A stretch of 64,000 nt of DNA from Candidatus Pyrohabitans jungbluthii (lineage in GTDB: Archaea; Hydrothermarchaeota; Hydrothermarchaeia; Hydrothermarchaeales; BMS3B), in NCBI GenBank assembly GCA_002010065.2, contig MTMD02000015.1, positions 64,001 through 128,000 on the forward strand. Reading direction: 5' to 3'. The position numbers and the translations under genes are program-made. This document shows, one piece after another, positions 1,068-55,795 of the stretch; position 1 is the first letter of the stretch; each line of letters opens with the position of its first letter. A model generated the notes under the pieces. That model was not told the origin of the DNA. It did no database searches and saw only the letters and a list, made by a program, of their open reading frames with translations.

Positions 1068-1085
1068 ACGATAAACTTAATATAG
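1068..1085 (+). promoter_or_regulatory. Candidate archaeal BRE/TATA promoter for the peptide-rSAM operon
   Basis: CGATAAA-CTTAATATAG about 40-55 nt upstream of the precursor ORF, in an AT-rich intergenic region. Confidence 0.45.
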
Positions 1086-1136
1086 CTCAATAGCATTATC
1101 ACACTGTTAAAGAAAAATTTAATGCGGGGTGCAAGA

Positions 1137-1241
1137 GTGGACAGGAAGGAGAGAAAGGATTGGAAGCTCACCATTGAAGATTTTGAGAAGGCTGCCTGCT
1201 ACCGTGACCACGGTGACTACCGCCCCATTGCGCCTCAGTAG
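1137..1241 (+). CDS. Putative RiPP precursor peptide, 34 aa (MDRKERKDWKLTIEDFEKAACYRDHGDYRPIAPQ); 39 aa if started at ATG 1122
   Basis: Manual translation: GTG at 1137 preceded by a GGGGTG RBS-like motif, TAG at 1239-1241. Lies 18 nt upstream of an RRE-fused radical SAM/SPASM gene; below the ORF-track length cutoff. Confidence 0.8.
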   Translation: MDRKERKDWKLTIEDFEKAACYRDHGDYRPIAPQ

Positions 1242-1259
1242 TATCCTGGTGCCGACGCA

Positions 1260-2570
1260 ATGGCTGCGCATGTGGTGAGAAGGAACCCCAACGTAGTTTA
1301 TCGCAGAGAAACCCGGGGTGGCACGGTAGAGGGTTTACTACTTTTTAACTATTCCACTCGTGGGATACATTTTCTTGAGGGTTTAGCAGCTAAGCTATGG
1401 GAAGTGTGCGAGGGGAAGAGCGCAGAGGAGATTGCGCATTCTCTAAAGCTGAGCAAAGCTGAGGTTGAGCGCTTTCTTGGGGAGCTTGAGGCTCGCAGGC
1501 TGGTGCGCTACAAAGGCGAGGGTAGCGAGGGTGACAACGAGGCTTTGAGCACCTCTGGCAAAGGAATGTGGAGCTCCCGGGTTTACTTCGATTCGCCAAT
1601 CTTTGTGCAATTCGACGTTACCAATGCCTGCAACCTGCGCTGCGCCCACTGCGTTACCTCCTCGGGTGAACCTCTGGAAAATGAGCTTTCAACGCAGGAG
1701 GCGCTCTCGTTGATTGATGAGCTTGCGTCGCTCGGGGTTTTCCAGATAGGCTTCTCCGGCGGAGAAGCGCTGCTACGCAGGGATATCTTCACGCTGATGG
1801 AGCACGCGAAAAAGCGAGGCATAAAGGTGCAGCTCACCACAAACGCAACGCTTATCAGCGAAGCTACAGCGAAGAAGCTGGTGAAGCTCGAGCCTATCAC
1901 CGTTGGGGTTAGCCTTGAAGGAGCAACAAAGCAGAGCTACGGAAGCTTTCGCGGCGAGGAGAACTTTGAGCGTGCCCTCTCCGGGGTACGCGCGCTCTTG
2001 CGCCACTCGCTGCCGGTGAAGCTGAAGGTCGCTGTTTCAAGGCGCAATCTTAGCGAGGTGGACGCAATTCTCAAGCTGGCGGTTGAGCTGGGCGTTGAGG
2101 CTGTGGATATGTTCCTACTCTATCCCGAGGGGAGAGCCAGGGGCATGAAGGACGAAGCCCTGAGCAGCACGGAAATTAAGGAGTTCTTAACCCTGCTTGC
2201 AAGGAGGCGCAGGGAGTACGAGGGAAAGCTTGCGATAGATGTGGACGACAAGCCCAACGCCTTTCTGGTTGACGCTTCTCTGGGTGCGAGCACCTGTGGC
2301 GCAGGCGCGTACTGGGCGGAGGTGCTGCCAAACGGAGATGTGGTGCCCTGCATTTTCCTGCGCAGTATGCGCGCTGGCAATGTGCGCGAGGCGAGCTTCA
2401 AGGAGATATGGCAGGGCAGCGTGTGGGAGCCTCTGCGCTCCCGTAGGCTAAAGGGGAGGTGCGGTGAGTGTGAGCACGCCTCTCGCTGCGGCGGGGGATG
2501 CAGGGCGAATGCGCTTTTACTGCTGGGCGACATAATGCAAGAGGATGCGCTGTGCTGGTACGGTGGTTAG
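1260..2570 (+). CDS. RRE (PqqD-like)-fused radical SAM/SPASM maturase, MftC/PqqE-like
   Basis: N-terminal ~85 aa PqqD-like pattern (RRNPNVVYRRE…LLLFNYSTRGIHFLEGLAAKLWEVCEGKSAEEIA…FLGELEARRLV); CNLRCAHC; GGE; SPASM cysteines CGAG…GDVVPC…CGECEHASRCGGGCRA…C. Confidence 0.9.
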   Translation: MAAHVVRRNPNVVYRRETRGGTVEGLLLFNYSTRGIHFLEGLAAKLWEVCEGKSAEEIAHSLKLSKAEVERFLGELEARRLVRYKGEGSEGDNEALSTSGKGMWSSRVYFDSPIFVQFDVTNACNLRCAHCVTSSGEPLENELSTQEALSLIDELASLGVFQIGFSGGEALLRRDIFTLMEHAKKRGIKVQLTTNATLISEATAKKLVKLEPITVGVSLEGATKQSYGSFRGEENFERALSGVRALLRHSLPVKLKVAVSRRNLSEVDAILKLAVELGVEAVDMFLLYPEGRARGMKDEALSSTEIKEFLTLLARRRREYEGKLAIDVDDKPNAFLVDASLGASTCGAGAYWAEVLPNGDVVPCIFLRSMRAGNVREASFKEIWQGSVWEPLRSRRLKGRCGECEHASRCGGGCRANALLLLGDIMQEDALCWYGG

Positions 2571-3570
2571 GGTGAACGCCTCAGGGTTATACGCGGTGGA
2601 GATCAGGCTAACAAAAGCGTGCAACCTGCGCTGCGCTCATTGCTCCGTCGCCGGAGGGGAGGCGGCGCGGGATGAGCTGGGCACCTCTGAGATAAAGCAC
2701 GTGCTTGACCAGCTTGCAGAGCTTCGCGTTCCCTACGTCACCTTCACAGGGGGCGAGCCTCTGCTGCGCAGGGACGCGATAAAGCTCATCGCATATGCAT
2801 CTTCGCGGGGGCTGCGCCCAAACCTGGACACCAACGGCATGCTCATAAACCCTGCCAAAGCCAAGCGCCTTAAAGAGGTAGGCATTGATCTGGTGCAGGT
2901 GAGTATCGATGGCACAGAGGAGACCCACGAAAAGATACGCGGGCAGGGAAGCTATGCTGCGGCGATTCGTGGTGCCAGGGAGGTGGTCAGGGCAGGGATT
3001 CCACTGCACATCAACTTCACCCTATCCAAGCTCAACCTCTCCGACCTCGAAGCAGTGGTGGAAACCGCCTCTTCCTTGGGGGCGAGAAGCCTCAGCCTGG
3101 AGAGGTTCATCGCCATCGGCAGGGGAGGAGCTATCGCCGAGCAGGCGCTTAGCAGCGAGGAGTTTCGTGAGGCACTGCACAGGTTTTTCTCACTGGCTGA
3201 GCATACACAGGTAAAGCTTCTCACCACCGACCCGCTGCGCGTGCTCATAGATCGCAAGCTTATAGAGCGCTACCGCGAGGAGATGTCGCGAAGAGTTTGC
3301 GGTGGGTGCACCGCTGGCATTGCAGCGCTAACCATATCCTACGACGGTGAGGTGTACCCCTGTCCGAAGCTACCCCTAAGCGTAGGTAATGTTCGTGAGC
3401 AGAGCATCGCAGAGATATGGCAGGGCAATGAGACCCTAGCGGCGCTGCGCGCGCGGGAGTTTAAGGGCAGGTGCGGTGAATGTGAGCTGGTAAATCTGTG
3501 CGGTGGGTGCAGGGGCGAGGCATTCGCGAGGGGAGATTTTCTTGGCGAAGACACCATGTGCTGGAAGTGA
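2545..3570 (+). CDS. Radical SAM/SPASM protein (second maturase, no RRE)
   Basis: CNLRCAHC, FTGGEP, CTAG…DGEVYPC…CGECELVNLCGGCR…C; the true start may be GTG at 2563. Confidence 0.9.
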   Translation: MRCAGTVVRVNASGLYAVEIRLTKACNLRCAHCSVAGGEAARDELGTSEIKHVLDQLAELRVPYVTFTGGEPLLRRDAIKLIAYASSRGLRPNLDTNGMLINPAKAKRLKEVGIDLVQVSIDGTEETHEKIRGQGSYAAAIRGAREVVRAGIPLHINFTLSKLNLSDLEAVVETASSLGARSLSLERFIAIGRGGAIAEQALSSEEFREALHRFFSLAEHTQVKLLTTDPLRVLIDRKLIERYREEMSRRVCGGCTAGIAALTISYDGEVYPCPKLPLSVGNVREQSIAEIWQGNETLAALRAREFKGRCGECELVNLCGGCRGEAFARGDFLGEDTMCWK

Positions 3571-3574
3571 TGGT

Positions 3575-4651
3575 ATGCGTGACGAGGAGCTTAAGGTTGA
3601 ACTTCTGTGCCGGGGAATGAAGGTTCCTGAGCAAGCGTGGAGCTACTACAAGCGGAGCGCGGGCTTTCCGATAAGGTTTGGGGATACGCTGGTAAGCGTG
3701 CCCTCCTTGGGCAAGTACGACCGCTACAGCTTCGTAGAAGCTTCGCCTTACAGCATAACGAGAAGCGACGGGAAGTGGCTGCTTCTTAAGGACGGGGAAG
3801 TGATTCGCGAAGTCGACGTAGCCGAGGTGCCCGGCTTTTACGAGAAGCTGAGCAGCGATGGCGTGGAGATGAAGCGCATATTCCAGGTTTGTGGCTGGGA
3901 CTGCGTGCTCACAGGCGTTGTTCAGAGCTGTGCCTACCAGAGGCGTGGCACCCAATGCAGGTTCTGTGGCACCATCTACAACCCTGCCTACGAGGGCAGG
4001 CTGGACAGGAAAACGCCTCAGCAGCTTGCTGAAGCCGCTGAAGCAGCGGTGGAGCACGGGATAAAGCATGCGGTTATAACCTCCGGCGTAATGCCCACCC
4101 CCGACAGGGGAGCGCGCCTCTTGCTGGAGGCTGCGAAGGCGATTAAGGAACGCGTGGATATCCCGCTTGAGGCTGAGCTCGCTCCGCCACAGGATTTGCG
4201 CTACTTGGAGCTTCTTTTAGAGCACGTGGACAGCGTGAGCATAAACATCGAAACTTTAGACCAGCGAGTGCGAGAGTACGCCTGTCCCGATAAATCCAAT
4301 ATACCCTACGAGGAATACTTCGCGGCGTATGAGCTCGCCCTCGAGGCTCTCGGCGAAAACCAAGTGAACTCCTGGCTCATCGCCGGTCTAGGGGAGAGTG
4401 ATGAGGCGATCATCGAAGGGGTTGAAGAGCTCGCTGAACGAGGCGTCTTCCCCTTCCTTGTGCCCCTCCGTCCCACAAAGGGCACGGGCTATGAGAACAC
4501 GCCGCCACCATCGCCGGAGAGGCTGAGCACGCTTGCCATGCAGGCTGCGGAGGTGGTTAAAGACTTCGGGCTGAAGCCAGAGAAGAACAAAGCCGGATGC
4601 ATGAGGTGCTCCGCGTGCTCACCCGTGAGGGACTTTCTGAAGCTGGTGTAG
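3575..4651 (+). CDS. Radical SAM protein, MSMEG_0568/biotin-synthase-like fold, CX8CX2C motif
   Basis: QSCAYQRRGTQCRFC, ITSG, NIETLD, WLIAGLGE, VPLRP..GT, C-terminal KAGCMRCSACS; start placed at ATG 3575 just after the upstream stop. Confidence 0.8.
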   Translation: MRDEELKVELLCRGMKVPEQAWSYYKRSAGFPIRFGDTLVSVPSLGKYDRYSFVEASPYSITRSDGKWLLLKDGEVIREVDVAEVPGFYEKLSSDGVEMKRIFQVCGWDCVLTGVVQSCAYQRRGTQCRFCGTIYNPAYEGRLDRKTPQQLAEAAEAAVEHGIKHAVITSGVMPTPDRGARLLLEAAKAIKERVDIPLEAELAPPQDLRYLELLLEHVDSVSINIETLDQRVREYACPDKSNIPYEEYFAAYELALEALGENQVNSWLIAGLGESDEAIIEGVEELAERGVFPFLVPLRPTKGTGYENTPPPSPERLSTLAMQAAEVVKDFGLKPEKNKAGCMRCSACSPVRDFLKLV

Positions 4652-5313
4652 GGCTAAAGGAGAAGTGGAGGCGCGGCTACGAAGGGTTGGCTCAGCTTAT
4701 AGCACAGCATATTTACGGGCGCGTGCTTGAGGCGGGCGCTGGCAGAGGACAGCTCACTCAGGCGCTATTGCGCTACCACGAGAACCTCGTAGCCCTGGAT
4801 GCATCGCCGGGAGAGCTTTTTAAGCTTAAACAAAGCTGCCATGTTACGGCGGTGGCAGGAGCTTTTGAGGCGCTGCCCTTCGCGGCGGGGAGCTTCAACT
4901 GCGTGGTGAGCAACTTCACCGCGGGCTGGCTAAACGAGGAGCACTTGCTCAGAGCGCTTAAAGAGTTTAAACGGGTGCTCGCCAAAGGCGGCGTCGCGAT
5001 ACTCAGCGACTTTTACCCGGAGGCAAGGAGCAAGGCGGAAGAGGTGGCGCTGCTTCAGGGCTTGCCCGAGAACAACCTCTTGCCTTCGGAGAAGTGGTGG
5101 CATCCCGAGGAGATTGCAGCGCTTGCAGCGAAGGCTGGCTTTGAGGAGGAGAAGCTAGCCTTCTACGACTGGGGCATACGCTTCACCAGAGAGGAGGCGA
5201 TACTCCAGCTCACGCGGTGGCATGCTAAGCAGGAGTTCATAGGCCGCATAGACGCTCTGCTTTCAAGGCATGGCATGGCTCTTCCCCAAAGCTATGTGCT
5301 CATGCTGAGGTAG
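4597..5313 (+). CDS. Class I SAM-dependent methyltransferase
   Basis: VLEAGAGRG motif I, LPFAAGSFNCVV, RVLAKGG; exact start uncertain. Confidence 0.85.
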   Translation: MHEVLRVLTREGLSEAGVGLKEKWRRGYEGLAQLIAQHIYGRVLEAGAGRGQLTQALLRYHENLVALDASPGELFKLKQSCHVTAVAGAFEALPFAAGSFNCVVSNFTAGWLNEEHLLRALKEFKRVLAKGGVAILSDFYPEARSKAEEVALLQGLPENNLLPSEKWWHPEEIAALAAKAGFEEEKLAFYDWGIRFTREEAILQLTRWHAKQEFIGRIDALLSRHGMALPQSYVLMLR

Positions 5314-5317
5314 GGAT

Positions 5318-6106
5318 ATGAAGCTTCTCATCCTGGCTGGAGTGCATGGAGATGAGCCTGCTGCAGTGGAGGCAGCGAAGAGACTGGCGAGGCTTTTCCG
5401 GGACAGTGAAGAGGTTGAGGTGGTGCCGGAGGCTAACCCGGAGGCATGCTTTGCCGGCACCAGGCTGAGCCCCAGCGATGGCAGGGATTTAAACCGCTGC
5501 TTTCCAGGAAATGAAGAAGGGACGAGCACAGAGAGGCTTGCATTTAGGCTTTTTCAGAAGGTGCTTGAGGCTGAGGTTGTGGTGGACCTGCACACGCCCA
5601 GCATGGGCAGAGCGTACCTGCCCCACGCCAGGCTGCGCGTGGCCATGCCAAAGCTGAGAGAGCTGTGCTCCTATGCGGGCATGGACTATGCCACCCTTGA
5701 TGTACCTGAGCAGGGAATGCTCCAGGTGGAGGCTTCTCAGCGGGGGATACCTGTGCTCACCCTTGAGGCTGGAGAGGGAGGCAAAGCAGGCGAAGAAACG
5801 GTTAACGCTCTTGTGGAAGCGGTGCTGGGAGTGGCGCGAAGTCTGGGCGTAGCAGAAGGCGAGGCTGCTCGCGGAGAGGTGCGCTTTGTGAAGCGGGAGC
5901 GGATTCTGAGCGATGCCTCGGGTAAGCTTAAGATGAAGGTGGCGCTAGGCGATGAGGTGAGGCTGGGCACCATAGTTGCGAAGGTTGGAAAGACAAGAAT
6001 AAAGTCCCACGTGAATGGCATTGTTCTGGGTGTGAGTTCTCAGGAGTACGTGGAGGAGAATGAGTTTGTCGCCAGCATAGGCGTGGAGGTTCAGCATGAA
6101 TTATGA
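5318..6106 (+). CDS. Succinylglutamate desuccinylase/aspartoacylase-family (M14-like) Zn amidohydrolase/peptidase
   Basis: AGVHGDE (HxxE), DLNRCFPG, VDLHT, TLEAG; C-terminal biotinyl/lipoyl-like domain. Confidence 0.85.
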   Translation: MKLLILAGVHGDEPAAVEAAKRLARLFRDSEEVEVVPEANPEACFAGTRLSPSDGRDLNRCFPGNEEGTSTERLAFRLFQKVLEAEVVVDLHTPSMGRAYLPHARLRVAMPKLRELCSYAGMDYATLDVPEQGMLQVEASQRGIPVLTLEAGEGGKAGEETVNALVEAVLGVARSLGVAEGEAARGEVRFVKRERILSDASGKLKMKVALGDEVRLGTIVAKVGKTRIKSHVNGIVLGVSSQEYVEENEFVASIGVEVQHEL

Positions 6107-6638
6107 GGAATGCTATGAGCTTATAAAGCGCGCTCGCTACCGCGATGCAATCTCTTGCTTAGAACGCCTGCTCAGCGCCAACCCGCGCGACGACCGCGCG
6201 TGGGTTACCAAGGCGGGGGCGCACCGTGCCATAGGCGAATACCACGAGGCTTTGAGCTGCTACGACGAGGCGATTAAGCTCAACCCGAGCAACGACGACG
6301 CGTGGTACTTCCGCGGCAAGCTCTTCGCCAGATGGAGTGAGCACGCTGAGGCTGAGCGCTGCTTTGCCGAGGTGCTGAAGCTCAACCCGCGCGATGAGTA
6401 CGCATGGATAGGCAGAGGAAAGGCGCTTAAAGGTTTAGCCCGCTACGAGGAGGCGCTGCGCTGCCTGGACAAAGCTATTGAGATTAACCAGCGCAACGAG
6501 GACTCGTGGATGCTTAAGGCGGAGGTGCTGCTGAAGCTGGGGAAGCGCGACGCTGCCATCGCCTGCCTCAAGCGCGTGCTGGAAATTAACCCCAGAAACG
6601 AGGACGCGAAGGATAAGCTGGAGAGGATAAGGGAATGA
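6096..6638 (+). CDS. Tetratricopeptide repeat protein
   Basis: About five 34-aa repeats of the form NP..D.AW..KG……Y.EAL.C.D.A. Confidence 0.92.
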   Translation: MNYEECYELIKRARYRDAISCLERLLSANPRDDRAWVTKAGAHRAIGEYHEALSCYDEAIKLNPSNDDAWYFRGKLFARWSEHAEAERCFAEVLKLNPRDEYAWIGRGKALKGLARYEEALRCLDKAIEINQRNEDSWMLKAEVLLKLGKRDAAIACLKRVLEINPRNEDAKDKLERIRE

Positions 6639-7702
6639 CGCTGAGCGTTGCTGACAAGAAGATACTTATCCAGAGCAAGGGGCTGAGAATCCCCTGGGAA
6701 GTGGAAAAAGAGCTAGCACAGCGCTTCGCGGGCGTTGAGAGCGACTATCCCAGCTTCTTCCTCGAGGGCAGCACACCTGTGGGTCTGCTCAACGGCTTCT
6801 ACACTGAAGCCTCGCCCTTTGAGCTTCGCAGGCATTGCAAGGGGTATGCGATTTTTTGCGACGACGAACCCTTCGCAGAGGTGAGCTTTCTACCTCGCAC
6901 CCCCTTCCTCGACAGGCGCACCTCTCGAGGCATAGCAATGAGGCGCATTGTTAAGATGGTTGCCCCCGGGTTTCCGATAATCTACCTTAACACGGGATGC
7001 ATGTACTGGGGGGAGAAGCAGTGCAAGTTCTGCGTGGTGGGGCACATAGACACAGAGAAGTTTAAGAACCCAGAGGATGTGGCTGAAACCGTCGAAGCTG
7101 GAGTCAAAGACGGTGGTATAAAAACCCACGTGGCGCTCACCAGTGGGGCTTTGCCCAAGGATAAGGCGATTGACCTGCTCGCAGCCACTGTAAAGGCGAT
7201 TAAAGAGCGCGTAGATATACCGGTTTCCGTTAATCTTGAGCCTCCAAGGGATTTGGGCAAGCTTGAGATGCTTGCTGATGCTGACTCTATATACCTGAAC
7301 ATGGAAGTCTACGACCCTGCCGCAAGGAAGCGCTTTCTCCCGGGCAAGAGCGAATTCTCGCCTGAGTACTACTTCAGAGCCTTTAAAGCATGCCTCGATA
7401 TATTCGAGGAGAACCAGGTATGCTCTGTGCTGCTCGCTGGCCTAGAGAGCGACGAGAGCTATCTGCGCGGCGTTGAAGCCCTCGCCGAGCGTGGCGTGCT
7501 CCCCGTAACCACGCCCTTCTACCCAGCGCTCCTCTCAAAGCTAGCGGACGAGAAGCCGCCCTCCGCCGAGAGGATGCGCCGCATATACGAGCGCAGCGTG
7601 GAGATAATCCGCGCCTATGGTTTGGACCCCTTCAAGACAAAAGCAGGTTTTATGCGCGGCGGCGCAATCTTCGCCCTCAAGGAGGTTTGGAAGGAGATGT
7701 AA
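6635..7702 (+). CDS. Radical SAM protein, paralog of 3575-4651, CX7CX2C motif
   Basis: GCMYWGEKQCKFC, ALTSG, KAIKERVDIP shared with the paralog, LLAGLE; C-terminus KAGFMRGGAIF lacks cysteines. Confidence 0.8.
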   Translation: MTLSVADKKILIQSKGLRIPWEVEKELAQRFAGVESDYPSFFLEGSTPVGLLNGFYTEASPFELRRHCKGYAIFCDDEPFAEVSFLPRTPFLDRRTSRGIAMRRIVKMVAPGFPIIYLNTGCMYWGEKQCKFCVVGHIDTEKFKNPEDVAETVEAGVKDGGIKTHVALTSGALPKDKAIDLLAATVKAIKERVDIPVSVNLEPPRDLGKLEMLADADSIYLNMEVYDPAARKRFLPGKSEFSPEYYFRAFKACLDIFEENQVCSVLLAGLESDESYLRGVEALAERGVLPVTTPFYPALLSKLADEKPPSAERMRRIYERSVEIIRAYGLDPFKTKAGFMRGGAIFALKEVWKEM

Positions 7703-7940
7703 AAGGGCTATCCAAATTATCCTTATTATCCTTAATATATATGACCAGCCAGAACATTTCAATGATGCTGCTATATAGGCCTACCAAACCCAAAATCTCC
7801 CGCAAGTCTAGTTTCCTCATTATTATGTGATATGAGGGTACTAAATTATTCAGTAATACCCCAAACAATACAAGGGGAGCGATAAACTATATATATGCAG
7901 AATTTTTAAGGAGATAATTACCAATCCCGGAGACCAGATT

Positions 7941-51292: not shown

Positions 51293-52285
51293 TCATTCCT
51301 TTTTGTACATGGCTATACGCTGGGTAAACCTCTCCTCTTTGTAAATCTTATACCCGAATTCCAGCTCTACTTGGGCGAGCCTTTCAAAACCTTCGCTGCG
51401 CAGCGTTGCGGAGAGCACATCCCTTGAGAACTTCTCATCTGCAATGGGGCGCCAGATTGCAAGCTCCCATAAATCCTGGGGGTAGAAGTCCCCGCACTTC
51501 TCAGCTTCAATGGGCTCCAGCAGGAGAAGCTTTCCTCCGCGCTGCAGAAGCTCTGCCGCATTTCTGAGCGCTCCCGTGGCATCTTCCACATACTCGAGCA
51601 AAGCGTCCACAATCACCCAGTCACAGCTTTCATTGCGAAGGGGCACAGCATGCTCAACATCGTAGGCGAGAAAGCTTCCGTAGCTGAGCCACTCCTTCAC
51701 GCGCCTCAGTATGGTGGTTGAGAGATTGCCACATATCAGCCTGGCGTTGTTGTGCTTTGCCTTTTGCAGATAGCTTTTAATCCCGGTGGCTGCATCAAAC
51801 ACAACCTCCCTCATGCGCGGGTTGAGCAAGCTCTCGAAGGCGGCTATACGACGCATCGCAAGCTCGTCGGGCTCACTCCTCCTCCCCCTGCTATCCTCTG
51901 CAGGGATGCTGCGCCTCTCAAAGAGCTCATAAAAGCGCTTCCAGGGCACCACCCTAATCGAGTACCTCAGCTTCGGCGAGAGTTTCGCAGCCCTGCCACG
52001 GTTGTCCAGCTCGAGTTTAAGCTTTTCGCTCGCGGAGGAGAATTCCACCTCAAGCTTATCTCCGCGAGGGTTAAGCGCTGAGATGCGGTACTCTCTGCCC
52101 TTGCCCACTCTCGGCATTATGGCGATGTACACATTGCCCTCGGGAAGCTCTGCTCCGGTGAAGCTACCCAGCCTCTCGCGGGAGTAGAGCTTCAGAAGCG
52201 CATACTCACCTTTGCTGAGCCTCTCCACTCTAACCGGGAGGTGAATCGCCCTCTTTTTACCCCTGCGCAGCGCAACCAGCGTCAT
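51293..52285 (-). CDS. Methyltransferase-fold protein with N-terminal extension
   Basis: VFDAATG (degenerate motif I), PLRNESCDWVI, LLEYVED, LLQRGGKLLLLEP. Confidence 0.7.
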   Translation of the reverse strand: MTLVALRRGKKRAIHLPVRVERLSKGEYALLKLYSRERLGSFTGAELPEGNVYIAIMPRVGKGREYRISALNPRGDKLEVEFSSASEKLKLELDNRGRAAKLSPKLRYSIRVVPWKRFYELFERRSIPAEDSRGRRSEPDELAMRRIAAFESLLNPRMREVVFDAATGIKSYLQKAKHNNARLICGNLSTTILRRVKEWLSYGSFLAYDVEHAVPLRNESCDWVIVDALLEYVEDATGALRNAAELLQRGGKLLLLEPIEAEKCGDFYPQDLWELAIWRPIADEKFSRDVLSATLRSEGFERLAQVELEFGYKIYKEERFTQRIAMYKKE

Positions 52286-53007
52286 ATCTCCACTTTTTCT
52301 AGCTCTCGAATCTCAAAATCACCGCTGCAAAGCCTGCACACGCCATTGCTGAGCCTCGTCGCCTCTGTAATTTCGTTGCACACCGTGCAGCGCTTCGGCG
52401 AGGCTATGTACTGCATATCCAGAGGGTACATGAGCTTCGAGAGGTCAACCTCAACGCGGGTGACAATAAAAAGCTCAGAGTCGCTCATCCTGTGCCACTT
52501 TAATATAAGTTCCCTCTCTATTTTCTGAAGCCGCTTTCGCTCAGCCAGCGCTTTTTCAAGGTCCCCCTTCGCATAAACGCGATAGAACTGCTCTAGCTGC
52601 TTGCCATAGTCGATGTGCTCCTCGTCAACGTCTGGCTTGCACTTAATTCTCAGCGCTTCCCCGGTGGCGAGGTTTCCGAAGATGGCGGCAAACTTTCCGT
52701 GGTCCAAGAAGACCAGCCTACCGCTTCCAAAGCTGCACTGCGTGGCTGCGGCTATACCATCGGCGGCGCATGTGAGAATCTCAACTGCCGCCACAAGGTC
52801 ACGCTTTCTTTTCAGATCAAGCAGGCGCACTGCAAGGTGCCCCATCCTCGTACCTAAGTAGCTGGCGGTGCATATATGCCCATGCACCTTTGGCACCGTT
52901 TCAAGAGCCTCACGCAGCGAGGGGTAGCTTGGCGCGCGCTTCCCATGCCCGCGCTTCCTCATGCTCGGCAGCAAATCTTCTATTTCAAAGTCTGGAGTAT
53001 AGCTCAT
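52282..53007 (-). CDS. FmdE-family protein with N-terminal extension and C-terminal Zn finger
   Basis: HGHIC, CAADG…CSFGSG, GKFA, CTVC…CRLC. Confidence 0.85.
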   Translation of the reverse strand: MSYTPDFEIEDLLPSMRKRGHGKRAPSYPSLREALETVPKVHGHICTASYLGTRMGHLAVRLLDLKRKRDLVAAVEILTCAADGIAAATQCSFGSGRLVFLDHGKFAAIFGNLATGEALRIKCKPDVDEEHIDYGKQLEQFYRVYAKGDLEKALAERKRLQKIERELILKWHRMSDSELFIVTRVEVDLSKLMYPLDMQYIASPKRCTVCNEITEATRLSNGVCRLCSGDFEIRELEKVEI

Positions 53008-54347
53008 CCTGTAGCCTCCTTTTCTAGGGCTATGCTCCTGAAGGAGCGCCTCTCCACACCGGGGAGGACGCGCAGCATGGCGGGAGCCTCTCCGGGTGGT
53101 GCTACATTGGGTACTTCAACCTTATAAAGCCTCGCGAGGGCGTCGAAGAGCAAAGTTCTGAGCTCATCCTGCGAGAAGTGAGAGGTTTCAATCACCGGAT
53201 TGAGGTGGTGGTACTCCCACCAGTTGCATGAGCGCAGCTTTAATCCAAGCTCAGAGGCGTGCCTGAACAGGTAGGTGTCGGGGTAGGGAGTTTGAACAGC
53301 AAACGTAGCCTCGCCTCCCAGCGAGCACACCTCCTCGGCTAAGCGTATGGTAGCCTCCACGCTTTCCCTAGTGTCCCAGGGGTGCCCTATCATGAAGCCG
53401 CATACCGGCGTTATCCCCTCGCGTACAAACTTACGAACTACGTCGAGTAGCCTCTCCAAGGCGATCTCCTTCTTTATGGCGTCCACCACCTCCTGAGAGC
53501 CGCTCTCTATACCGAAGCGCACAACCTCGCAGCCTGCGCTCGCCATGGCTTCAATCAGTTTCTCATCAACGTGGTCAAGGCGAAGCTCCGCGTACCACCG
53601 CATCCCTAACCTCGACACGAGGGAGCATATCCTGAGGGCGCGTTTCCTGTCGTAGGCGAAGTTGGGGTCTATGACGAAGAAGGAGCTCAACCCAAGGCTG
53701 CGAAGATGCTCAACTTCGCGAGCCACGCTCTCAGGGGTGCGCATTCTCAGCTTACCGGACATGGCGCGGGAAGAGCAGTACACGCAGCTGTAGGCGCATC
53801 CTCGCGACGTCGCTATTGCGCCTGGCAAAGCGTAGGCTTTCAGGTTGAGCAGGTGCCTCGCGGGTAGAGGGAGCGCATCCAGGTCGCGAACCCGCCACAC
53901 GCCGTTGCTCTTCGCTTTGCCTTCGCTGAGGTAGGCGATGCCCTTAACGCTGCGCACGTCTTTGCCCTTCTCAAGGCGGGACACGAGCTCAGCGAAGGCG
54001 AGTTCACCCTCGCCGCGAACCGCAAAGTTAAACCCGTGCCTAAGCACCTCCTCATAGCGAAAGGTGGCGTGAATCCCGCCTATCGCCACGAGCTTTCCCT
54101 GCTCCTTCGCCGCCTCGAGTACCGCAAGCGCATAGGGGTAGTTCTGTGTGTAGCTGGAAACCCCGACAAGCTCAGCTTCTGCGATGCGCTGCTCAAGCTT
54201 CGCTTTCCCCAGGTTAAGGTCAAGAATCTCTACGCGATGCCCTCGCTGCTCAAGCATCGCCGCTATGTACGCAAGTCCCAAGGGGGGCATCGCCACCCTC
54301 TTCTCCGAGGCGCTGCTGTGGGGAACCTCTACGAGAAGCACATCCAA
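53004..54347 (-). CDS. Cobalamin-binding (class B) radical SAM protein
   Basis: PPLGLAYIAA, GGIHAT, GEGE, SRGCAYSCVYC, FGIESGS, TPYP. Confidence 0.93.
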   Translation of the reverse strand: MDVLLVEVPHSSASEKRVAMPPLGLAYIAAMLEQRGHRVEILDLNLGKAKLEQRIAEAELVGVSSYTQNYPYALAVLEAAKEQGKLVAIGGIHATFRYEEVLRHGFNFAVRGEGELAFAELVSRLEKGKDVRSVKGIAYLSEGKAKSNGVWRVRDLDALPLPARHLLNLKAYALPGAIATSRGCAYSCVYCSSRAMSGKLRMRTPESVAREVEHLRSLGLSSFFVIDPNFAYDRKRALRICSLVSRLGMRWYAELRLDHVDEKLIEAMASAGCEVVRFGIESGSQEVVDAIKKEIALERLLDVVRKFVREGITPVCGFMIGHPWDTRESVEATIRLAEEVCSLGGEATFAVQTPYPDTYLFRHASELGLKLRSCNWWEYHHLNPVIETSHFSQDELRTLLFDALARLYKVEVPNVAPPGEAPAMLRVLPGVERRSFRSIALEKEATG

Positions 54348-54589
54348 GGTACTTCCTCCACAAAGCCCTTCTCCATCCAGAGCTTCAGCAGCCGCTTAGC
54401 CTCTTCGCGGTGCTCTGAAAACTCCCGCTCTATTAACTCCTCAACCTCCTGCATGGTTTTACCGTGCACTTCTTCCCAGAGTCTCGTCGCAGCTTCGTTG
54501 AGCACGTATATGCCATCCCTCGCCATGAGGATAACCCTCTTGCCCTCGCGCTTCCATACCATATTCGCCCTCGCCAGCCTGTACTCCAT
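54329..54589 (-). CDS. Stand-alone PqqD-like RiPP recognition element
   Basis: YVLNEAATRLWEEVHGKT..E….I..EF…LL..W..KGFV pattern; 86 aa. Confidence 0.75.
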   Translation of the reverse strand: MEYRLARANMVWKREGKRVILMARDGIYVLNEAATRLWEEVHGKTMQEVEELIEREFSEHREEAKRLLKLWMEKGFVEEVPWMCFS

Positions 54590-54590
54590 G

Positions 54591-55283
54591 CTACAACCTC
54601 CCCAGTGCGCGGAGCAGCTCCTCTACTCGTGAGCGCTTCACCACGCCTGCTTCGCACGCCGCGCCGCGAAAGCCCAGTATATCGCTTCCTATGCTAACCG
54701 CACGCTCTAGGTGTGGGATGCGGAGCGAGCCCGAGATGCAGGTCTCCATCCCGCGTTCATGGGCGAGGTCAACAAACTCGCGAAGCCTCTCCACAGAGGC
54801 GAAGTCCAGGATGTTTCGCCCGTCCTTTACTGCGGTGTCCAGCATAATAACATCACAGCTTACGTGCTTCACAAATTCGAAGGGGTTGGCACTGCCAGTG
54901 CGCCAGTAGTCAGCATAGCCAGAGATAATCAGCTTAGCTCCACCACCCTCCTCGGCAAGCGCACGCTTTAAAGCCCTGGAGAGTTTCTCCGCCTGCTCTG
55001 TTGTCTTAACGCCGTAGAAGGAGGCGACAACGTAGTCCACACCTAAACGAGCCACGCCGTATGCAGCCAAGCTTGCGGTGCCTGGCTTGAAGTCTAGGTC
55101 GCCTATGCTCGCCGCAACCTCAATGCGAGGCGGAAGAAGCTCCATCACTTCCTTTATCACCCAGGGCTTGTTGGCGCCCAGCGTCCCCTCCCCGGGGTTC
55201 TTTATGTCGAGAATATCCACGCCGCCTGCTGCCAGAACCTCGCTTGCCTCTTTCTTGTCCTTTATGCTTATGAGCACCCTCAT
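54591..55283 (-). CDS. mfnB: 4-(hydroxymethyl)-2-furancarboxaldehyde phosphate synthase (methanofuran biosynthesis)
   Basis: LDIKNPGEGTLGAN.PWVI, SIGD, KPGTASLAA, MLDTAVKDG, SGSL, GFRGAAC. Confidence 0.9.
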   Translation of the reverse strand: MRVLISIKDKKEASEVLAAGGVDILDIKNPGEGTLGANKPWVIKEVMELLPPRIEVAASIGDLDFKPGTASLAAYGVARLGVDYVVASFYGVKTTEQAEKLSRALKRALAEEGGGAKLIISGYADYWRTGSANPFEFVKHVSCDVIMLDTAVKDGRNILDFASVERLREFVDLAHERGMETCISGSLRIPHLERAVSIGSDILGFRGAACEAGVVKRSRVEELLRALGRL

Positions 55284-55795
55284 CTTTCCATCCCCAGCAC
55301 CGTCAGAGCCTTGCTCACCTCGTAGGCGGTGATGCGCTTGCCCTTCCGCAGCTTCGAGATCTCGGCGCGGTAACTGCTGTAGTCTTCAGGGGTAAATCTT
55401 AGTTTGGGCGTGGAAAAGAGCGCCACCCAGGCGAAGTGGTTGAGAAAGGGCAAAGCTTCAGGCTCGAGAAGGCTGAGCACGAACGACGCTACTCTAACAT
55501 CGACGCCGCTCAGGCTAATAAGCTTCCTAAGCGCTTTCTCCGGGGGCAGCGCAAAAGCCTCTTCGGTGGTGTGCTTGAGTATGTTGGGCTCATTTGCGCT
55601 CGCATACGCGGCTAGTGAAGCGTCGACGAAAGCGGCGATACGCACCAACTCAAAGTATGTTAGATACTTTGGCTCGCGTTCAGCAAGCACACGGGAGATC
55701 TTAAGCATGGCTTCCTCTCGCTGGTATGGCCTACTCCCTGCGCTGAAACGCGCCGCAAGGGTACGAAGCTTCTCTTCGCTTATGTGGTGAAGCAA
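55280..55795 (-). CDS. Hypothetical protein with HhH-like motif
   Basis: LISLSGVDVRVASFVL…P; co-oriented with and overlapping mfnB. Confidence 0.55.
   Translation of the reverse strand: MLHHISEEKLRTLAARFSAGSRPYQREEAMLKISRVLAEREPKYLTYFELVRIAAFVDASLAAYASANEPNILKHTTEEAFALPPEKALRKLISLSGVDVRVASFVLSLLEPEALPFLNHFAWVALFSTPKLRFTPEDYSSYRAEISKLRKGKRITAYEVSKALTVLGMER

What the first reader, a model, noticed from the sequence alone, without database searches (positions are those of the whole stretch)
1122..7702. Candidate new archaeal RiPP / peptide-derived cofactor operon with four radical SAM enzymes
Seen in the sequence: eight co-oriented, abutting or overlapping genes. In order they are a short peptide ORF (absent from the ORF track), an RRE-fused rSAM/SPASM, a second rSAM/SPASM, an rSAM with CX8CX2C, a methyltransferase, an M14-like Zn amidohydrolase, a TPR protein and a paralogous rSAM with CX7CX2C. 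Established knowledge: a short ORF plus RRE, SPASM rSAM and peptidase is the logic of mycofactocin (MftA/B/C/E) and PQQ (PqqA/D/E), and the first enzyme's core (TNACNLRCAHCVTSSG….ELST….IDEL…VF) resembles MftC. Inference: this is a heavily modified peptide pathway. There is no exporter in the operon, which fits an intracellular product such as a cofactor. The peptide lacks the MftA (IDGMCGVY) and PqqA (ExxxY) cores, and I recognise no described cluster with this gene set.
Basis: partly seen in the sequence, partly recalled or inferred. Interest (0 to 1): 0.95.

Follow-up and report, generated by a model that had tools for sequence, protein, structure and literature searches.

The report
New archaeal radical-SAM peptide-maturation operon
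An uncultivated hydrothermal archaeon carries a compact operon in which a tiny, almost invariant peptide sits beside a peptide-binding radical-SAM enzyme and six further tailoring proteins, which looks like a previously undescribed pathway for a heavily modified peptide or peptide-derived cofactor.

Summary
All eight co-oriented, abutting or overlapping ORFs are at the stated coordinates, with the stated domains and variant Cys motifs.

The main predictions pass:
- **Peptide.** The 39-aa ORF is conserved upstream of every orthologous operon found: 5 other Hydrothermarchaeota genomes and 4 metagenome contigs. Eighteen residues are invariant, and 13 of 22 core codons vary only synonymously.
- **RRE.** The N-terminal domain of the first enzyme is a real PqqD-type RRE. 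In some genomes it is a separate gene.
- **No curated family.** No enzyme reaches a curated cut-off for MftC, PqqE, AhbD/NirJ or the Nit1C radical SAM.

I read it as a new RRE-dependent, multi-radical-SAM peptide-maturation pathway. The product, and whether it is a cofactor, are unresolved.

Two additions:
- The last radical SAM belongs to a clade whose standalone members sit next to genes of a second operon.
- That second operon (MfnB paralogue, PqqD, B12-radical SAM, FmdE-like, methyltransferase; window 51293-55795) is itself uncharacterised and co-varies with the peptide operon.

No description was found in print.

The parts
1077..1084 (+). TTAATATA, a possible archaeal TATA box about 40 nt upstream of the peptide start codon
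   Evidence: Read directly. That it is a promoter is inference only and was not tested. The surrounding sequence is conserved in the same-genus loci.
1122..1241 (+). Precursor peptide of 39 aa. Proposed recognition segment W14-E22 (WKLTIEDFE), proposed core A25-P35 (ACYRDHGDYRP), and a variable 3-4 residue tail.
   Evidence: ORF. It is conserved upstream of all orthologous operons. The six distinct variants share 18 invariant residues. Of 22 core codon columns, 13 vary only synonymously and 5 vary in amino acid. The core occurs once in the genome. The split into leader and core is inference.
1260..2570 (+). p2: N-terminal PqqD-type RRE (about residues 7-80) fused to a radical SAM (CX3CX2C) with a full SPASM domain (7 invariant Cys)
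   Evidence: (invariant C124/C128/C131 and C346/C364/C401/C404/C410/C414/C432). The nearest solved relative is PqqE 6c8v, E=1.9e-22.
2545..3570 (+). p3: second radical SAM/SPASM enzyme, without an RRE
   Evidence: best hit AhbD model, 250.8 bits against a cut-off of 500. Syntenic orthologues at 51-96% identity. Better AhbD candidates lie elsewhere in the genome, at 463.5 and 297.5 bits.
3575..4651 (+). p4: variant radical SAM (CX8CX2C) with an N-terminal beta-rich domain and a C-terminal AGCxRCxxCS motif that could bind an auxiliary Fe-S cluster
   Evidence: NF045502 185 bits, above its cut-off of 125; TIGR04043 262 bits, below its cut-off of 303.7.. AF2 model with pLDDT 93.8; nearest folds are HydE, BioB and LipA at TM about 0.46-0.50. 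No solved sequence relative. That the motif binds a cluster is inference.
4597..5313 (+). p5: class I SAM-dependent methyltransferase
   Evidence: Methyltransf_11/25, E about 4e-16. No NCBIfam cut-off is reached; the best hits are BioC at 59 bits and the DVU_1556 family at 58 bits.
5318..6106 (+). p6: AstE/AspA-family (M14-like) zinc amidohydrolase, with the HGDE...H...E motif present
   Evidence: PF24827, 106 bits; alignment to 3cdx conserves GVHGDE, DxHT and the ExG stretch. The roles assigned to these residues are recalled, not tested. The gene is missing from the operon in one of five other genomes (G025).
6096..6638 (+). p7: TPR-repeat protein of 180 aa
   Evidence: Conserved in all five other operons at 54-93% identity.
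6635..7702 (+). p8: second variant radical SAM (CX7CX2C). It lacks the C-terminal Cys triad. Its start overlaps the p7 stop.
   Evidence: It is in the operon in 4 of 5 other genomes but not in G019. Its clade includes standalone copies that lie next to genes of the second locus.
51293..55795 (-). Possibly linked second operon: unknown 171-aa protein, MfnB paralogue, standalone PqqD (86 aa), B12-binding radical SAM, FmdE-like protein, 330-aa methyltransferase
   Evidence: no NCBIfam cut-off reached. The six-gene order is conserved in G001, G004 and G009. Its presence co-varies with the peptide operon. A functional link is inference from co-variation and from the position of p8-like genes.

Best explanation
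This is an operon for the post-translational maturation of a ribosomal peptide. It follows RiPP logic and has the same architecture as the mycofactocin and PQQ pathways.

Proposed steps:
1. The 39-aa precursor is translated.
2. Its invariant N-terminal segment (WKL-x-IEDFE) is captured by the PqqD-type RRE of p2.
3. The radical SAM/SPASM enzymes p2 and p3 install radical-derived crosslinks or an oxidative change in the invariant segment ACYRDHGDY-x-P. This segment holds one Cys, two Tyr, two Asp and one His.
4. p4, a HydE/BioB/LipA-like variant radical SAM with a possible auxiliary cluster, makes a further radical modification.
5. p5 methylates.
6. The carboxypeptidase-fold amidohydrolase p6 trims the variable C-terminal tail or releases the small product.
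7. The TPR protein p7 acts as a scaffold.
8. p8 either acts on the same substrate or links the pathway to the second operon at 51.3-55.8 kb.

Shown here:
- The genes, their domains and their synteny.
- That the peptide is under protein-level selection.
- That p2 carries an RRE.
- That none of the enzymes meets the curated cut-off of a characterised family.

Inferred:
- The boundary between leader and core.
- Every chemical step.
- The order of steps.
- Whether the product stays in the cell. I put an intracellular cofactor-like product at roughly 40-45% and a secreted or metal-binding peptide at roughly 35%, both within this explanation.
For: **Operon and synteny**
- Eight abutting co-oriented genes.
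- The same order in G001, G004 and G009, and with small differences in G025 and G019.

**Peptide**
- The peptide is upstream of p2 in 6 of the 6 genomes that hold a p2 orthologue, out of 41 genomes searched.
- It is also present in 5 loci from the species-genome collection and 4 metagenome loci.
- There are six variants with 18 invariant positions, while the neighbouring enzyme is only 58-64% identical.
- 13 of 22 core codon columns vary only synonymously.

**RRE**
- The PqqD model hits 11 of 16 p2 orthologues, best E 7.1e-8.
- A search of the window's own genome gives 24.5 bits, over the cut-off, when neighbouring stretches are counted.
- A profile of the domain has the lasso-peptide RRE TbiB1 as its best PDB hit, E=0.009.
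- The AF2 model (pLDDT 89.6) has three strands then three helices. Its best Foldseek hits are TbiB1 with bound leader (TM 0.68-0.69) and the RRE of CteB.
- The domain is a separate ORF in G019 and is missing from 7 short orthologue clusters, P0019-P0025.

**Peptide-RRE co-fold**
- The verdict was weak support: score 0.45 against a best-of-3 control of 0.13.
- The mark was reached by 58 of 80 solved complexes and by 2 of 110 mismatched pairs.
- At 0.60 or under it was reached by only 7 of those 80 and by both of the mismatches that passed.
- The runs agree in at least 75% of contacts, and the partner's pLDDT is at least 49.

**Nearest relatives of p2**
- The nearest solved relatives are peptide-modifying enzymes: PqqE, SkfB, SuiB and CteB.
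- p2 orthologues form a tight group of 27 clusters at 55% identity or more, then drop to 38%.
- p4 orthologues form 22 clusters at 55% or more, then drop to about 41%.
Against: - No modification has been observed, and no RNA data were available (no RNA holder listed).
- The operon has no recognisable leader endopeptidase, exporter or immunity gene.
- The best NCBIfam scores of p2 and p3 are to tetrapyrrole enzymes (NirJ2, AhbD), not to peptide maturases.
- p4 and p8 belong to a superfamily branch (MSMEG_0568-like) for which I know of no peptide substrate.
- p8-like genes at 49-59% identity stand alone, without peptide, p2, p3 or p4, in G013, G017 and G031. In G019 the p8-like gene is not in the operon. 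At least one of the 'four' radical SAMs may therefore not act on this peptide.
- p6 is missing from the G025 operon.
- The co-fold support is only weak.
- The operon is variably present within one genus. That is unusual for an essential cofactor, although it is also seen for PQQ and mycofactocin.
Confidence: 0.8

Rival explanations
1. Two-locus pathway. The peptide operon and the second operon (MfnB paralogue, PqqD, B12-radical SAM, FmdE-like, methyltransferase) together build one product. p8 is the shared or bridging enzyme. The second RRE presents the same peptide to the B12-radical SAM, for example for C-methylation.
For: **Co-variation across the 41 genomes searched**
- B12-radical SAM orthologues (53% identity or more) occur in 7 genomes: G000, G001, G004, G009, G013, G019 and G026.
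- A second MfnB paralogue (58% or more) occurs in 6: G000, G001, G004, G009, G019 and G026. A housekeeping MfnB at 39-50% is in 35 of 41.
- So 5 of the 6 genomes with the peptide operon also hold the second locus.

**Contrasts within genera**
- In genus g1, G000, G001 and G004 have both loci, and G002 and G003 have neither.
- In genus g2, G009 has both, and G005 and G007 have neither.

**Position of p8-like genes**
- Standalone p8-like genes lie within 3 kb of second-locus genes in 3 of 5 standalone loci examined: G013, G017 and G019:C2. This is not so on the two G031 contigs.

**Conserved order**
- The six-gene order is conserved.
Against: - G013 and G026 hold the second locus without the peptide operon.
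- G025 (89% complete) holds the peptide operon, but the second locus was not found there.
- In the window the two loci are 44 kb apart.
- The genomes are related, so the contrasts are few: about 3 independent ones.
- No precursor-like small ORF was found near the second locus.
Confidence: 0.35
2. The mature product is a metal-binding peptide (a metallophore or metallochaperone-like RiPP) rather than a redox cofactor. The invariant Cys, His, Asp and Tyr side chains would serve as ligands.
For: - The invariant core is made almost entirely of classical metal ligands: C26, Y27, D29, H30, D32 and Y33.
- In G009 the gene directly upstream, in the same orientation, is a NosL-family protein. A second NosL gene and a MacB-type ABC transporter lie beside it.
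- In G001 the operon abuts a multihaem cytochrome c gene. The ~1.4-kb gap after p8 in G004 was not read.
Against: - The NosL and ABC neighbours appear in 1 of the 5 other operon loci with readable flanks.
- The cytochrome gene is also present at the empty site in G002 and is absent from the window, so it is a neighbour by position only.
- No transporter is conserved with the operon.
Confidence: 0.15
3. The enzymes make or modify a non-peptide small molecule, such as a tetrapyrrole (AhbD/NirJ-like p2 and p3) or a Nit1C-like metabolite (p4 and p8). The short ORF is then an unrelated small protein or regulator.
For: - The top NCBIfam scores of p2 and p3 are NirJ2 and AhbD. p4 scores 262 bits on the Nit1C radical SAM model.
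- A multihaem cytochrome gene is a neighbour in a related genome.
- p8-like genes occur without any peptide.
Against: - All those scores are below the curated cut-offs: 230 and 251 bits against 500, and 262 against 303.7.
- Better AhbD candidates exist elsewhere in the genome.
- p2 carries a peptide-binding RRE.
- The peptide is more conserved than any enzyme and is always directly upstream of p2.
- None of the other Nit1C genes is present.
Confidence: 0.06

Closest known systems
Mycofactocin pathway (MftA/MftB/MftC/MftE)
   Same: A short precursor sits directly upstream of a PqqD-type RRE and a radical SAM/SPASM enzyme. A hydrolase is present for trimming, and there is no exporter. The MftC model is the third-best NCBIfam hit of p2, at 189 bits. 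The core contains a Gly-x-Tyr motif.
   Different: p2 is below the MftC cut-off of 265 bits. The peptide lacks the C-terminal IDGMCGVY motif, and its Tyr is not C-terminal. There is no creatininase-type MftE, MftD or MftF. The RRE is fused in most genomes. Three more radical SAMs, a methyltransferase and a TPR protein are present.
PQQ pathway (PqqA/PqqD/PqqE)
   Same: PqqE is the nearest solved structure to p2 by sequence (6c8v, E=1.9e-22). The pathway uses a PqqD-type RRE. The acidic residue and Tyr have similar spacing: D29-x3-Y33 here against E-x3-Y in PqqA, the latter recalled.
   Different: p2 scores 134.5 bits on the PqqE model against a cut-off of 381. There is no PqqB or PqqC. The peptide is unrelated in sequence.
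Sactipeptide and ranthipeptide maturases (CteB, SkfB, AlbA, PapB)
   Same: An N-terminal RRE is fused to a radical SAM/SPASM enzyme. The RRE model superposes on the RRE of CteB (5why/5wgg). The core contains a Cys.
   Different: There is only one Cys in the peptide. All these family models score far below their cut-offs. No protease-transporter is present.
MSMEG_0568 family radical SAM of the Nit1C cassette (TIGR04043)
   Same: p4 shares the variant CX7-9CX2C motif, the N-terminal domain and the C-terminal AGCx[RK]CxxCS motif with 45 of 45 other non-p8 family rows aligned. It scores 262 bits on the model.
   Different: p4 is below the cut-off of 303.7 and forms a separate, fully supported clade. 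No nitrilase, GNAT, AIR-synthase-like or flavoprotein genes are nearby. The papers listed for Nit1C concern nitrilase evolution and cyanide assimilation and, as far as the listing shows, name no peptide (listing and abstract starts only). p8 has lost the C-terminal Cys triad.
AhbD / NirJ (alternative haem and haem d1 radical SAM enzymes)
   Same: These are the best-scoring NCBIfam models for p3 (AhbD, 250.8 bits) and p2 (NirJ2, 230.4 bits). They have the same radical SAM plus SPASM architecture.
   Different: Both score about half the cut-off of 500. The genome has a 463.5-bit AhbD-like gene elsewhere. From recall, AhbD and NirJ have no RRE and no precursor peptide.

Membership tests
RiPP-type / peptide-derived cofactor pathway with an RRE-dependent radical SAM | A short precursor ORF next to the maturase, conserved across homologous loci | tested here: met
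RiPP-type / peptide-derived cofactor pathway with an RRE-dependent radical SAM | A PqqD-like RiPP recognition element, fused or discrete | tested here: met
   Pfam PqqD hits 11 of 16 orthologues. TbiB1 is the best PDB hit by profile and by fold, TM 0.68-0.69. A split form exists.
RiPP-type / peptide-derived cofactor pathway with an RRE-dependent radical SAM | Physical binding of the precursor to the RRE, and enzymatic modification of the peptide | not testable with these tools
   Only a weak co-fold signal is available: 0.45 against a best control of 0.13. The mark was reached by 58 of 80 solved complexes and 2 of 110 mismatched pairs, but at 0.60 or under by only 7 of those 80 and by both mismatches that passed. 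This needs biochemistry.
Mycofactocin | MftC equivalog score of 265 bits or more (TIGR03962) | tested here: not met
   p2 scores 189.2 bits and p3 scores 167.1 bits.
Mycofactocin | MftA-type precursor ending in ...GVY (motif recalled) | tested here: not met
   The peptide ends in RPIAPQ, and its Tyr33 is internal. The peptide has no NCBIfam hit even at E up to 10.
PQQ | PqqE equivalog score of 381 bits or more (TIGR02109), plus PqqB and PqqC | tested here: not met
   p2 scores 134.5 bits and p3 scores 141.3 bits. No PqqB or PqqC domains are in the operon.
AhbD / NirJ tetrapyrrole radical SAM enzymes | Equivalog score at or above the cut-off (500 bits for AhbD and NirJ2) | tested here: not met
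   p3 scores 250.8 and 236.0 bits, and p2 scores 215.8 and 230.4 bits. The genome's best AhbD-like gene is elsewhere, at 463.5 bits.
Nit1C cassette | MSMEG_0568 radical SAM score of 303.7 bits or more (TIGR04043) | tested here: not met
   p4 scores 262.3 bits and p8 scores 169.8 bits. Both fall in separate clades.
Nit1C cassette | Neighbouring nitrilase, GNAT, AIR-synthase-like and flavoprotein genes (gene list recalled) | tested here: not met
   None of these domains is among the eight operon genes.
NF045502 'variant_rSAM' domain family | Score of 125 bits or more | tested here: met
   p4 scores 185.3 bits and p8 scores 182.1 bits. This is a domain-level model without an assigned function.
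Sactipeptide / ranthipeptide | Several Cys donors in the core, and a maturase above its family cut-off | tested here: not met
   The peptide has one Cys. StsB, AlbA, PapB and SkfB all score far below their cut-offs.

The most novel reading that the evidence does not exclude
The peptide operon and the second operon together make a ribosomally templated, methanofuran-like or otherwise furan- or tyramine-bearing cofactor.

In this reading:
1. The carboxypeptidase-fold p6 exposes Tyr33.
2. An MftC-like SPASM enzyme oxidatively decarboxylates or crosslinks it.
3. The dedicated MfnB paralogue supplies a formylfuran unit that is joined to the modified Tyr.
4. The MSMEG_0568-like radical SAMs, the B12-radical SAM and the methyltransferases finish the molecule.

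This would be a third peptide-derived redox or C1 cofactor after PQQ and mycofactocin. It would also be the first substrate assignment for the MSMEG_0568/Nit1C radical SAM family.
Probability: 0.07. Interest if true: 0.95.

Novelty: new variant of a known kind. Interest (0 to 1): 0.72.

Why it matters
If the reading holds, four things follow.

- **A new peptide-maturation family in archaea.** The precursor is one of the most constrained seen for such pathways. It has 18 invariant residues across genomes whose enzymes are about 60% identical.
- **A handle on an uncharacterised radical SAM family.** This would be the first genomic context that ties the widespread MSMEG_0568-like variant-motif radical SAM family to a defined, testable peptide substrate. 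I found no paper on that family. Known chemistry for the family could also shed light on the bacterial Nit1C cassette.
- **A possible cofactor pathway.** The co-varying second operon holds specialised paralogues of methanofuran-associated proteins. That raises the possibility of a new cofactor in a subsurface lineage whose relatives have been discussed as carboxydotrophic (known here only from reference titles seen).
- **A small, tractable target.** The system has eight genes and a 39-aa substrate, which suits heterologous reconstitution.

Tried and rejected
- **The look-up of sequencing runs.** No RNA holder was listed, so expression could not be examined.
- **treekit tree.** The sandbox killed the run with no output. 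I repeated it with MAFFT and FastTree.
- **Peptide against NCBIfam at E up to 10.** No family matched.
- **Peptide profile against 1.84 billion representatives.** There were 3 hits at E of 0.001 or less. Only one is a peptide (35 aa, 83.7 bits). The other two are 1336 aa and 164 aa and match in many short stretches, so I set them aside as spurious.
- **p4 against PDB sequences.** No hit at E of 0.01 or less.
- **Small conserved ORF near the second locus.** Only the PqqD gene and alternative-frame shadows of conserved genes came up.
- **The ~150-aa ORFs after p8-like genes.** I asked whether these are one family. The G013 and G017 ORFs are AsnC-type HTH proteins. The G009 ORF has no Pfam hit and is not similar to them.
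- **Horizontal transfer.** The operon is 57.7% G+C, against 52.2% for the rest of the window and 46.2% upstream. In the other loci the flanks are too short for a firm statement, so I claim only variable presence. An empty site was seen in G002. The G003 contig ends at the site.
- **Literature.**
  - Nit1C with radical SAM, 9 papers. I saw the listing and abstract starts only.
  - Hydrothermarchaeota with radical SAM, 6 papers. I read passages of PMC13635244 and PMC9635834. Neither mentions this operon in the passages shown.
  - MSMEG_0568 and TIGR04043, 0 papers each.
  - archaea, RiPP, radical SAM, SPASM and precursor peptide, 12 papers. I read the abstract and outline of PMC13692751. It describes a different system, Crp, with Cys-rich proteins of methanogens.
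  - variant-motif terms. One passage of PMC9477430 lists variant motifs in uncharacterised megaclusters.
  - Supplementary files were not opened and may hold cluster lists that I could not see.
- **Unused tools.** I did not use the look-up of encoding contigs (closed), the viral collection, search_dna_similar or the protein atlas.

Full report
**Observation.** One search confirms eight + strand ORFs between 1122 and 7702.

- They are separated by 18 nt or less, or they overlap. The longer overlaps, p2/p3 and p4/p5, contain in-frame alternative starts.
- Upstream lies about 450 nt of A+T-rich non-coding DNA with a TTAATATA box at 1077-1084. Downstream lies a 240-nt spacer.
- Pfam and NCBIfam give the following:
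  - Two Radical_SAM plus SPASM proteins, p2 and p3.
  - Two Radical_SAM proteins, p4 and p8. Both pass the domain model NF045502 'variant_rSAM' and carry CX8CX2C and CX7CX2C.
  - A class I methyltransferase, p5.
  - An AstE/AspA-family zinc amidohydrolase, p6.
  - A TPR protein, p7.

**The peptide is real.**

- A search of 41 related genomes with p2 found orthologues (59-94% identity) in five besides the window's own. The next best hit was 40%.
- In all six genomes a short ORF with the same core lies directly upstream.
- The rest of the operon follows in the same order.
- Scanning one genome per prokaryotic species with patterns from the peptide gave 53 pattern matches. Five were confirmed, and all carry titles of Hydrothermarchaeota-type MAGs.
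- The metagenome collection gave 132 pattern matches, of which 4 were confirmed.
- The six distinct variants share W14 K15 L16 E19 D20 F21 E22 A25 C26 Y27 R28 D29 H30 G31 D32 Y33 P35, while the last three or four residues vary.
- Across eight loci, 13 of the 22 codon columns W14-P35 vary only synonymously and 5 change the residue. The conservation is therefore at the protein level.
- A profile search of 1.84 billion representatives found a single peptide cluster. The core occurs once in the genome. No NCBIfam model matches it even at E=10.

**The RRE is real.**

- The window's p2 alone scores below the PqqD cut-off. Across orthologues, 11 of 16 hit PqqD, best E 7.1e-8.
- A profile of the domain finds the lasso-peptide RRE TbiB1 as its best PDB sequence, E=0.009.
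- An AlphaFold2 model (pLDDT 89.6) has the three-strand, three-helix order. Its best structural matches are TbiB1 bound to its leader (TM 0.68-0.69) and the RRE of the thioether-forming CteB.
- In G019 the domain is a separate 80-odd-residue ORF ahead of a 344-aa radical SAM. Seven orthologue clusters from several sources have that short length. The split is therefore natural, as with PqqD and MftB.
- A co-fold of residues 1-100 with the peptide gave weak support: 0.45 against a best control of 0.13. The tool's calibration counts are given in the For line.

**The SPASM pair.**

- p2 has the CX3CX2C motif and seven further invariant Cys.
- The best curated models for p2 and p3 are NirJ2, AhbD and MftC, but at 167-251 bits against cut-offs of 265-500.
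- By sequence, the nearest solved structures to p2 are PqqE, SkfB, SuiB and CteB.
- The genome has better AhbD candidates elsewhere, at 463.5 and 297.5 bits.
- p2 orthologues form 27 clusters at 55% identity or more and then drop to 38%.

**The variant radical SAMs.**

- p4 orthologues form 22 clusters at 55% or more, then drop to about 41% with archaeal and bacterial proteins named MSMEG_0568 family, some of them fused to GNAT domains.
- The variant CX7-9CX2C motif is shared by all 35 sequences I compared.
- In a FastTree tree, p4 forms its own clade (support 1.0). The operon p8 copies are monophyletic (0.985) but nested among standalone hydrothermarchaeal copies. Both groups lie outside the MSMEG_0568 group.
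- The tree is midpoint-rooted and covers the 35 sequences I chose.
- p4 and the other 45 non-p8 rows of alignment A4 carry a C-terminal AGCx[RK]CxxCS motif. All 4 p8-clade rows in A4, and all 10 p8-clade tails printed, lack the three Cys.
- The p4 model (pLDDT 93.8) is closest to HydE, BioB, LipA, PylB and ThiH, at only TM 0.46-0.50. There is no solved sequence relative.
- I infer a BioB/HydE-like barrel with a possible auxiliary cluster in p4 and none in p8.

**Distribution.**

- The operon was found in 6 of 41 genomes searched, spread over four genera.
- In a same-genus genome without it (G002), the flanking aIF1A-like gene and the downstream membrane-protein gene are separated only by a multihaem cytochrome c gene.
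- That cytochrome gene follows the operon in G001 and is missing from the window.
- The operon is therefore an accessory block that is variably present within a genus.
- Local differences between operons:
  - G025 lacks p6 in the operon.
  - G004 has two small ORFs inserted between p6 and p7.
  - G019 has a nucleotidyltransferase instead of p8 after p7.

**A second locus.**

- Searching the genome for PqqD found a standalone 86-aa PqqD inside the window.
- It lies in a six-gene operon on the - strand at 51293-55795. The genes are an unknown 171-aa protein, an MfnB paralogue, PqqD, a B12-binding radical SAM, an FmdE-like protein and a methyltransferase.
- None of these reaches an NCBIfam cut-off.
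- The order is conserved in G001, G004 and G009, and partly in G026, G013 and G019.
- Its B12-radical SAM and its extra MfnB copy occur in 5 of the 6 peptide-operon genomes and in few others. The two loci are gained or lost together within two genera.
- Standalone p8-like genes lie beside second-locus genes in G013, G017 and G019.
- This weakens the claim that all four radical SAMs serve this peptide. It suggests that p8 links two parts of one larger system.

**Mechanism.**

- The most likely reading is RRE-guided radical maturation of the invariant ACYRDHGDY-x-P segment by p2 and p3. Further steps would be radical chemistry by p4 (and perhaps p8), methylation by p5, and C-terminal trimming or product release by p6.
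- p6 fits the last role because its family cleaves an amide next to a free carboxylate (recalled) and because the tail is the only variable part of the peptide.
- The chemistry is not shown.
- The cofactor idea is compatible with the data: no exporter, and MftC/PqqE-like logic. It rests on absence of evidence.
- A metal-binding product is also possible.

**Comparison and novelty.**

- The system works like mycofactocin or PQQ biosynthesis and like RRE-fused sactipeptide and ranthipeptide maturases. It fails every curated membership test for them.
- I found no description in the papers searched. Supplements were closed.
- I rate it a new variant of a known kind. It follows RiPP and peptide-cofactor logic with a new precursor family and an enzyme set not previously tied to peptides.

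**Limits.**

- All genomes are MAGs of related organisms, so the counts are not independent.
- Absences are 'not found' in genomes that are 57-100% complete.
- No expression or chemical data exist.

Noticed in passing
window 51293-55795 (- strand): A six-gene operon: an unknown 171-aa protein, an MfnB (4-HFC-P synthase) paralogue, a standalone PqqD/RRE, a B12-binding radical SAM, an FmdE-like protein and a 330-aa methyltransferase. None reaches an NCBIfam cut-off. Its presence co-varies with the peptide operon, and p8-like radical SAM genes sit beside it in other genomes.
   Followed up: partly
L031 5441-6607 (G002) and L013 10006-11166 (G001); missing from window 7703-7940: A multihaem cytochrome c gene of about 388 aa, with at least eight CxxCH motifs, occupies the site next to the operon in related genomes. 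It is absent from the window's genome at this position.
   Followed up: partly
L014 8886-9313 (G004): Two small ORFs (69 and 77 aa) are inserted between the amidohydrolase and TPR genes of the operon. By eye they look like a small toxin-antitoxin-type pair. No family search was run.
   Followed up: no
L022 7547-9902 and 4369-7291 (G009): Two NosL-family genes and a MacB-type ABC transporter (FtsX permease plus ATPase) lie directly upstream of the peptide gene in this genome only. An FmdE-like gene and a methyltransferase lie just downstream of the operon.
   Followed up: partly
window 1122-7702 against its flanks: The operon is 57.7% G+C, against 52.2% for the rest of the window and 46.2% for the 1.1 kb upstream. 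This fits an accessory block, but no origin was worked out.
   Followed up: partly
L035 9307-10819 (G013) and L034 9478-11026 (G017): Standalone p8-like radical SAM genes are followed by an AsnC-type HTH gene and flanked by an NMT1/THI5-like ABC binding protein and its permease.
   Followed up: partly
G000 contig C2 69090-70106 (outside the window): The genome's best AhbD-like gene scores 463.5 bits, just under the cut-off of 500. A second candidate on C7 scores 297.5 bits. These are candidates for the real alternative-haem enzymes.
   Followed up: no
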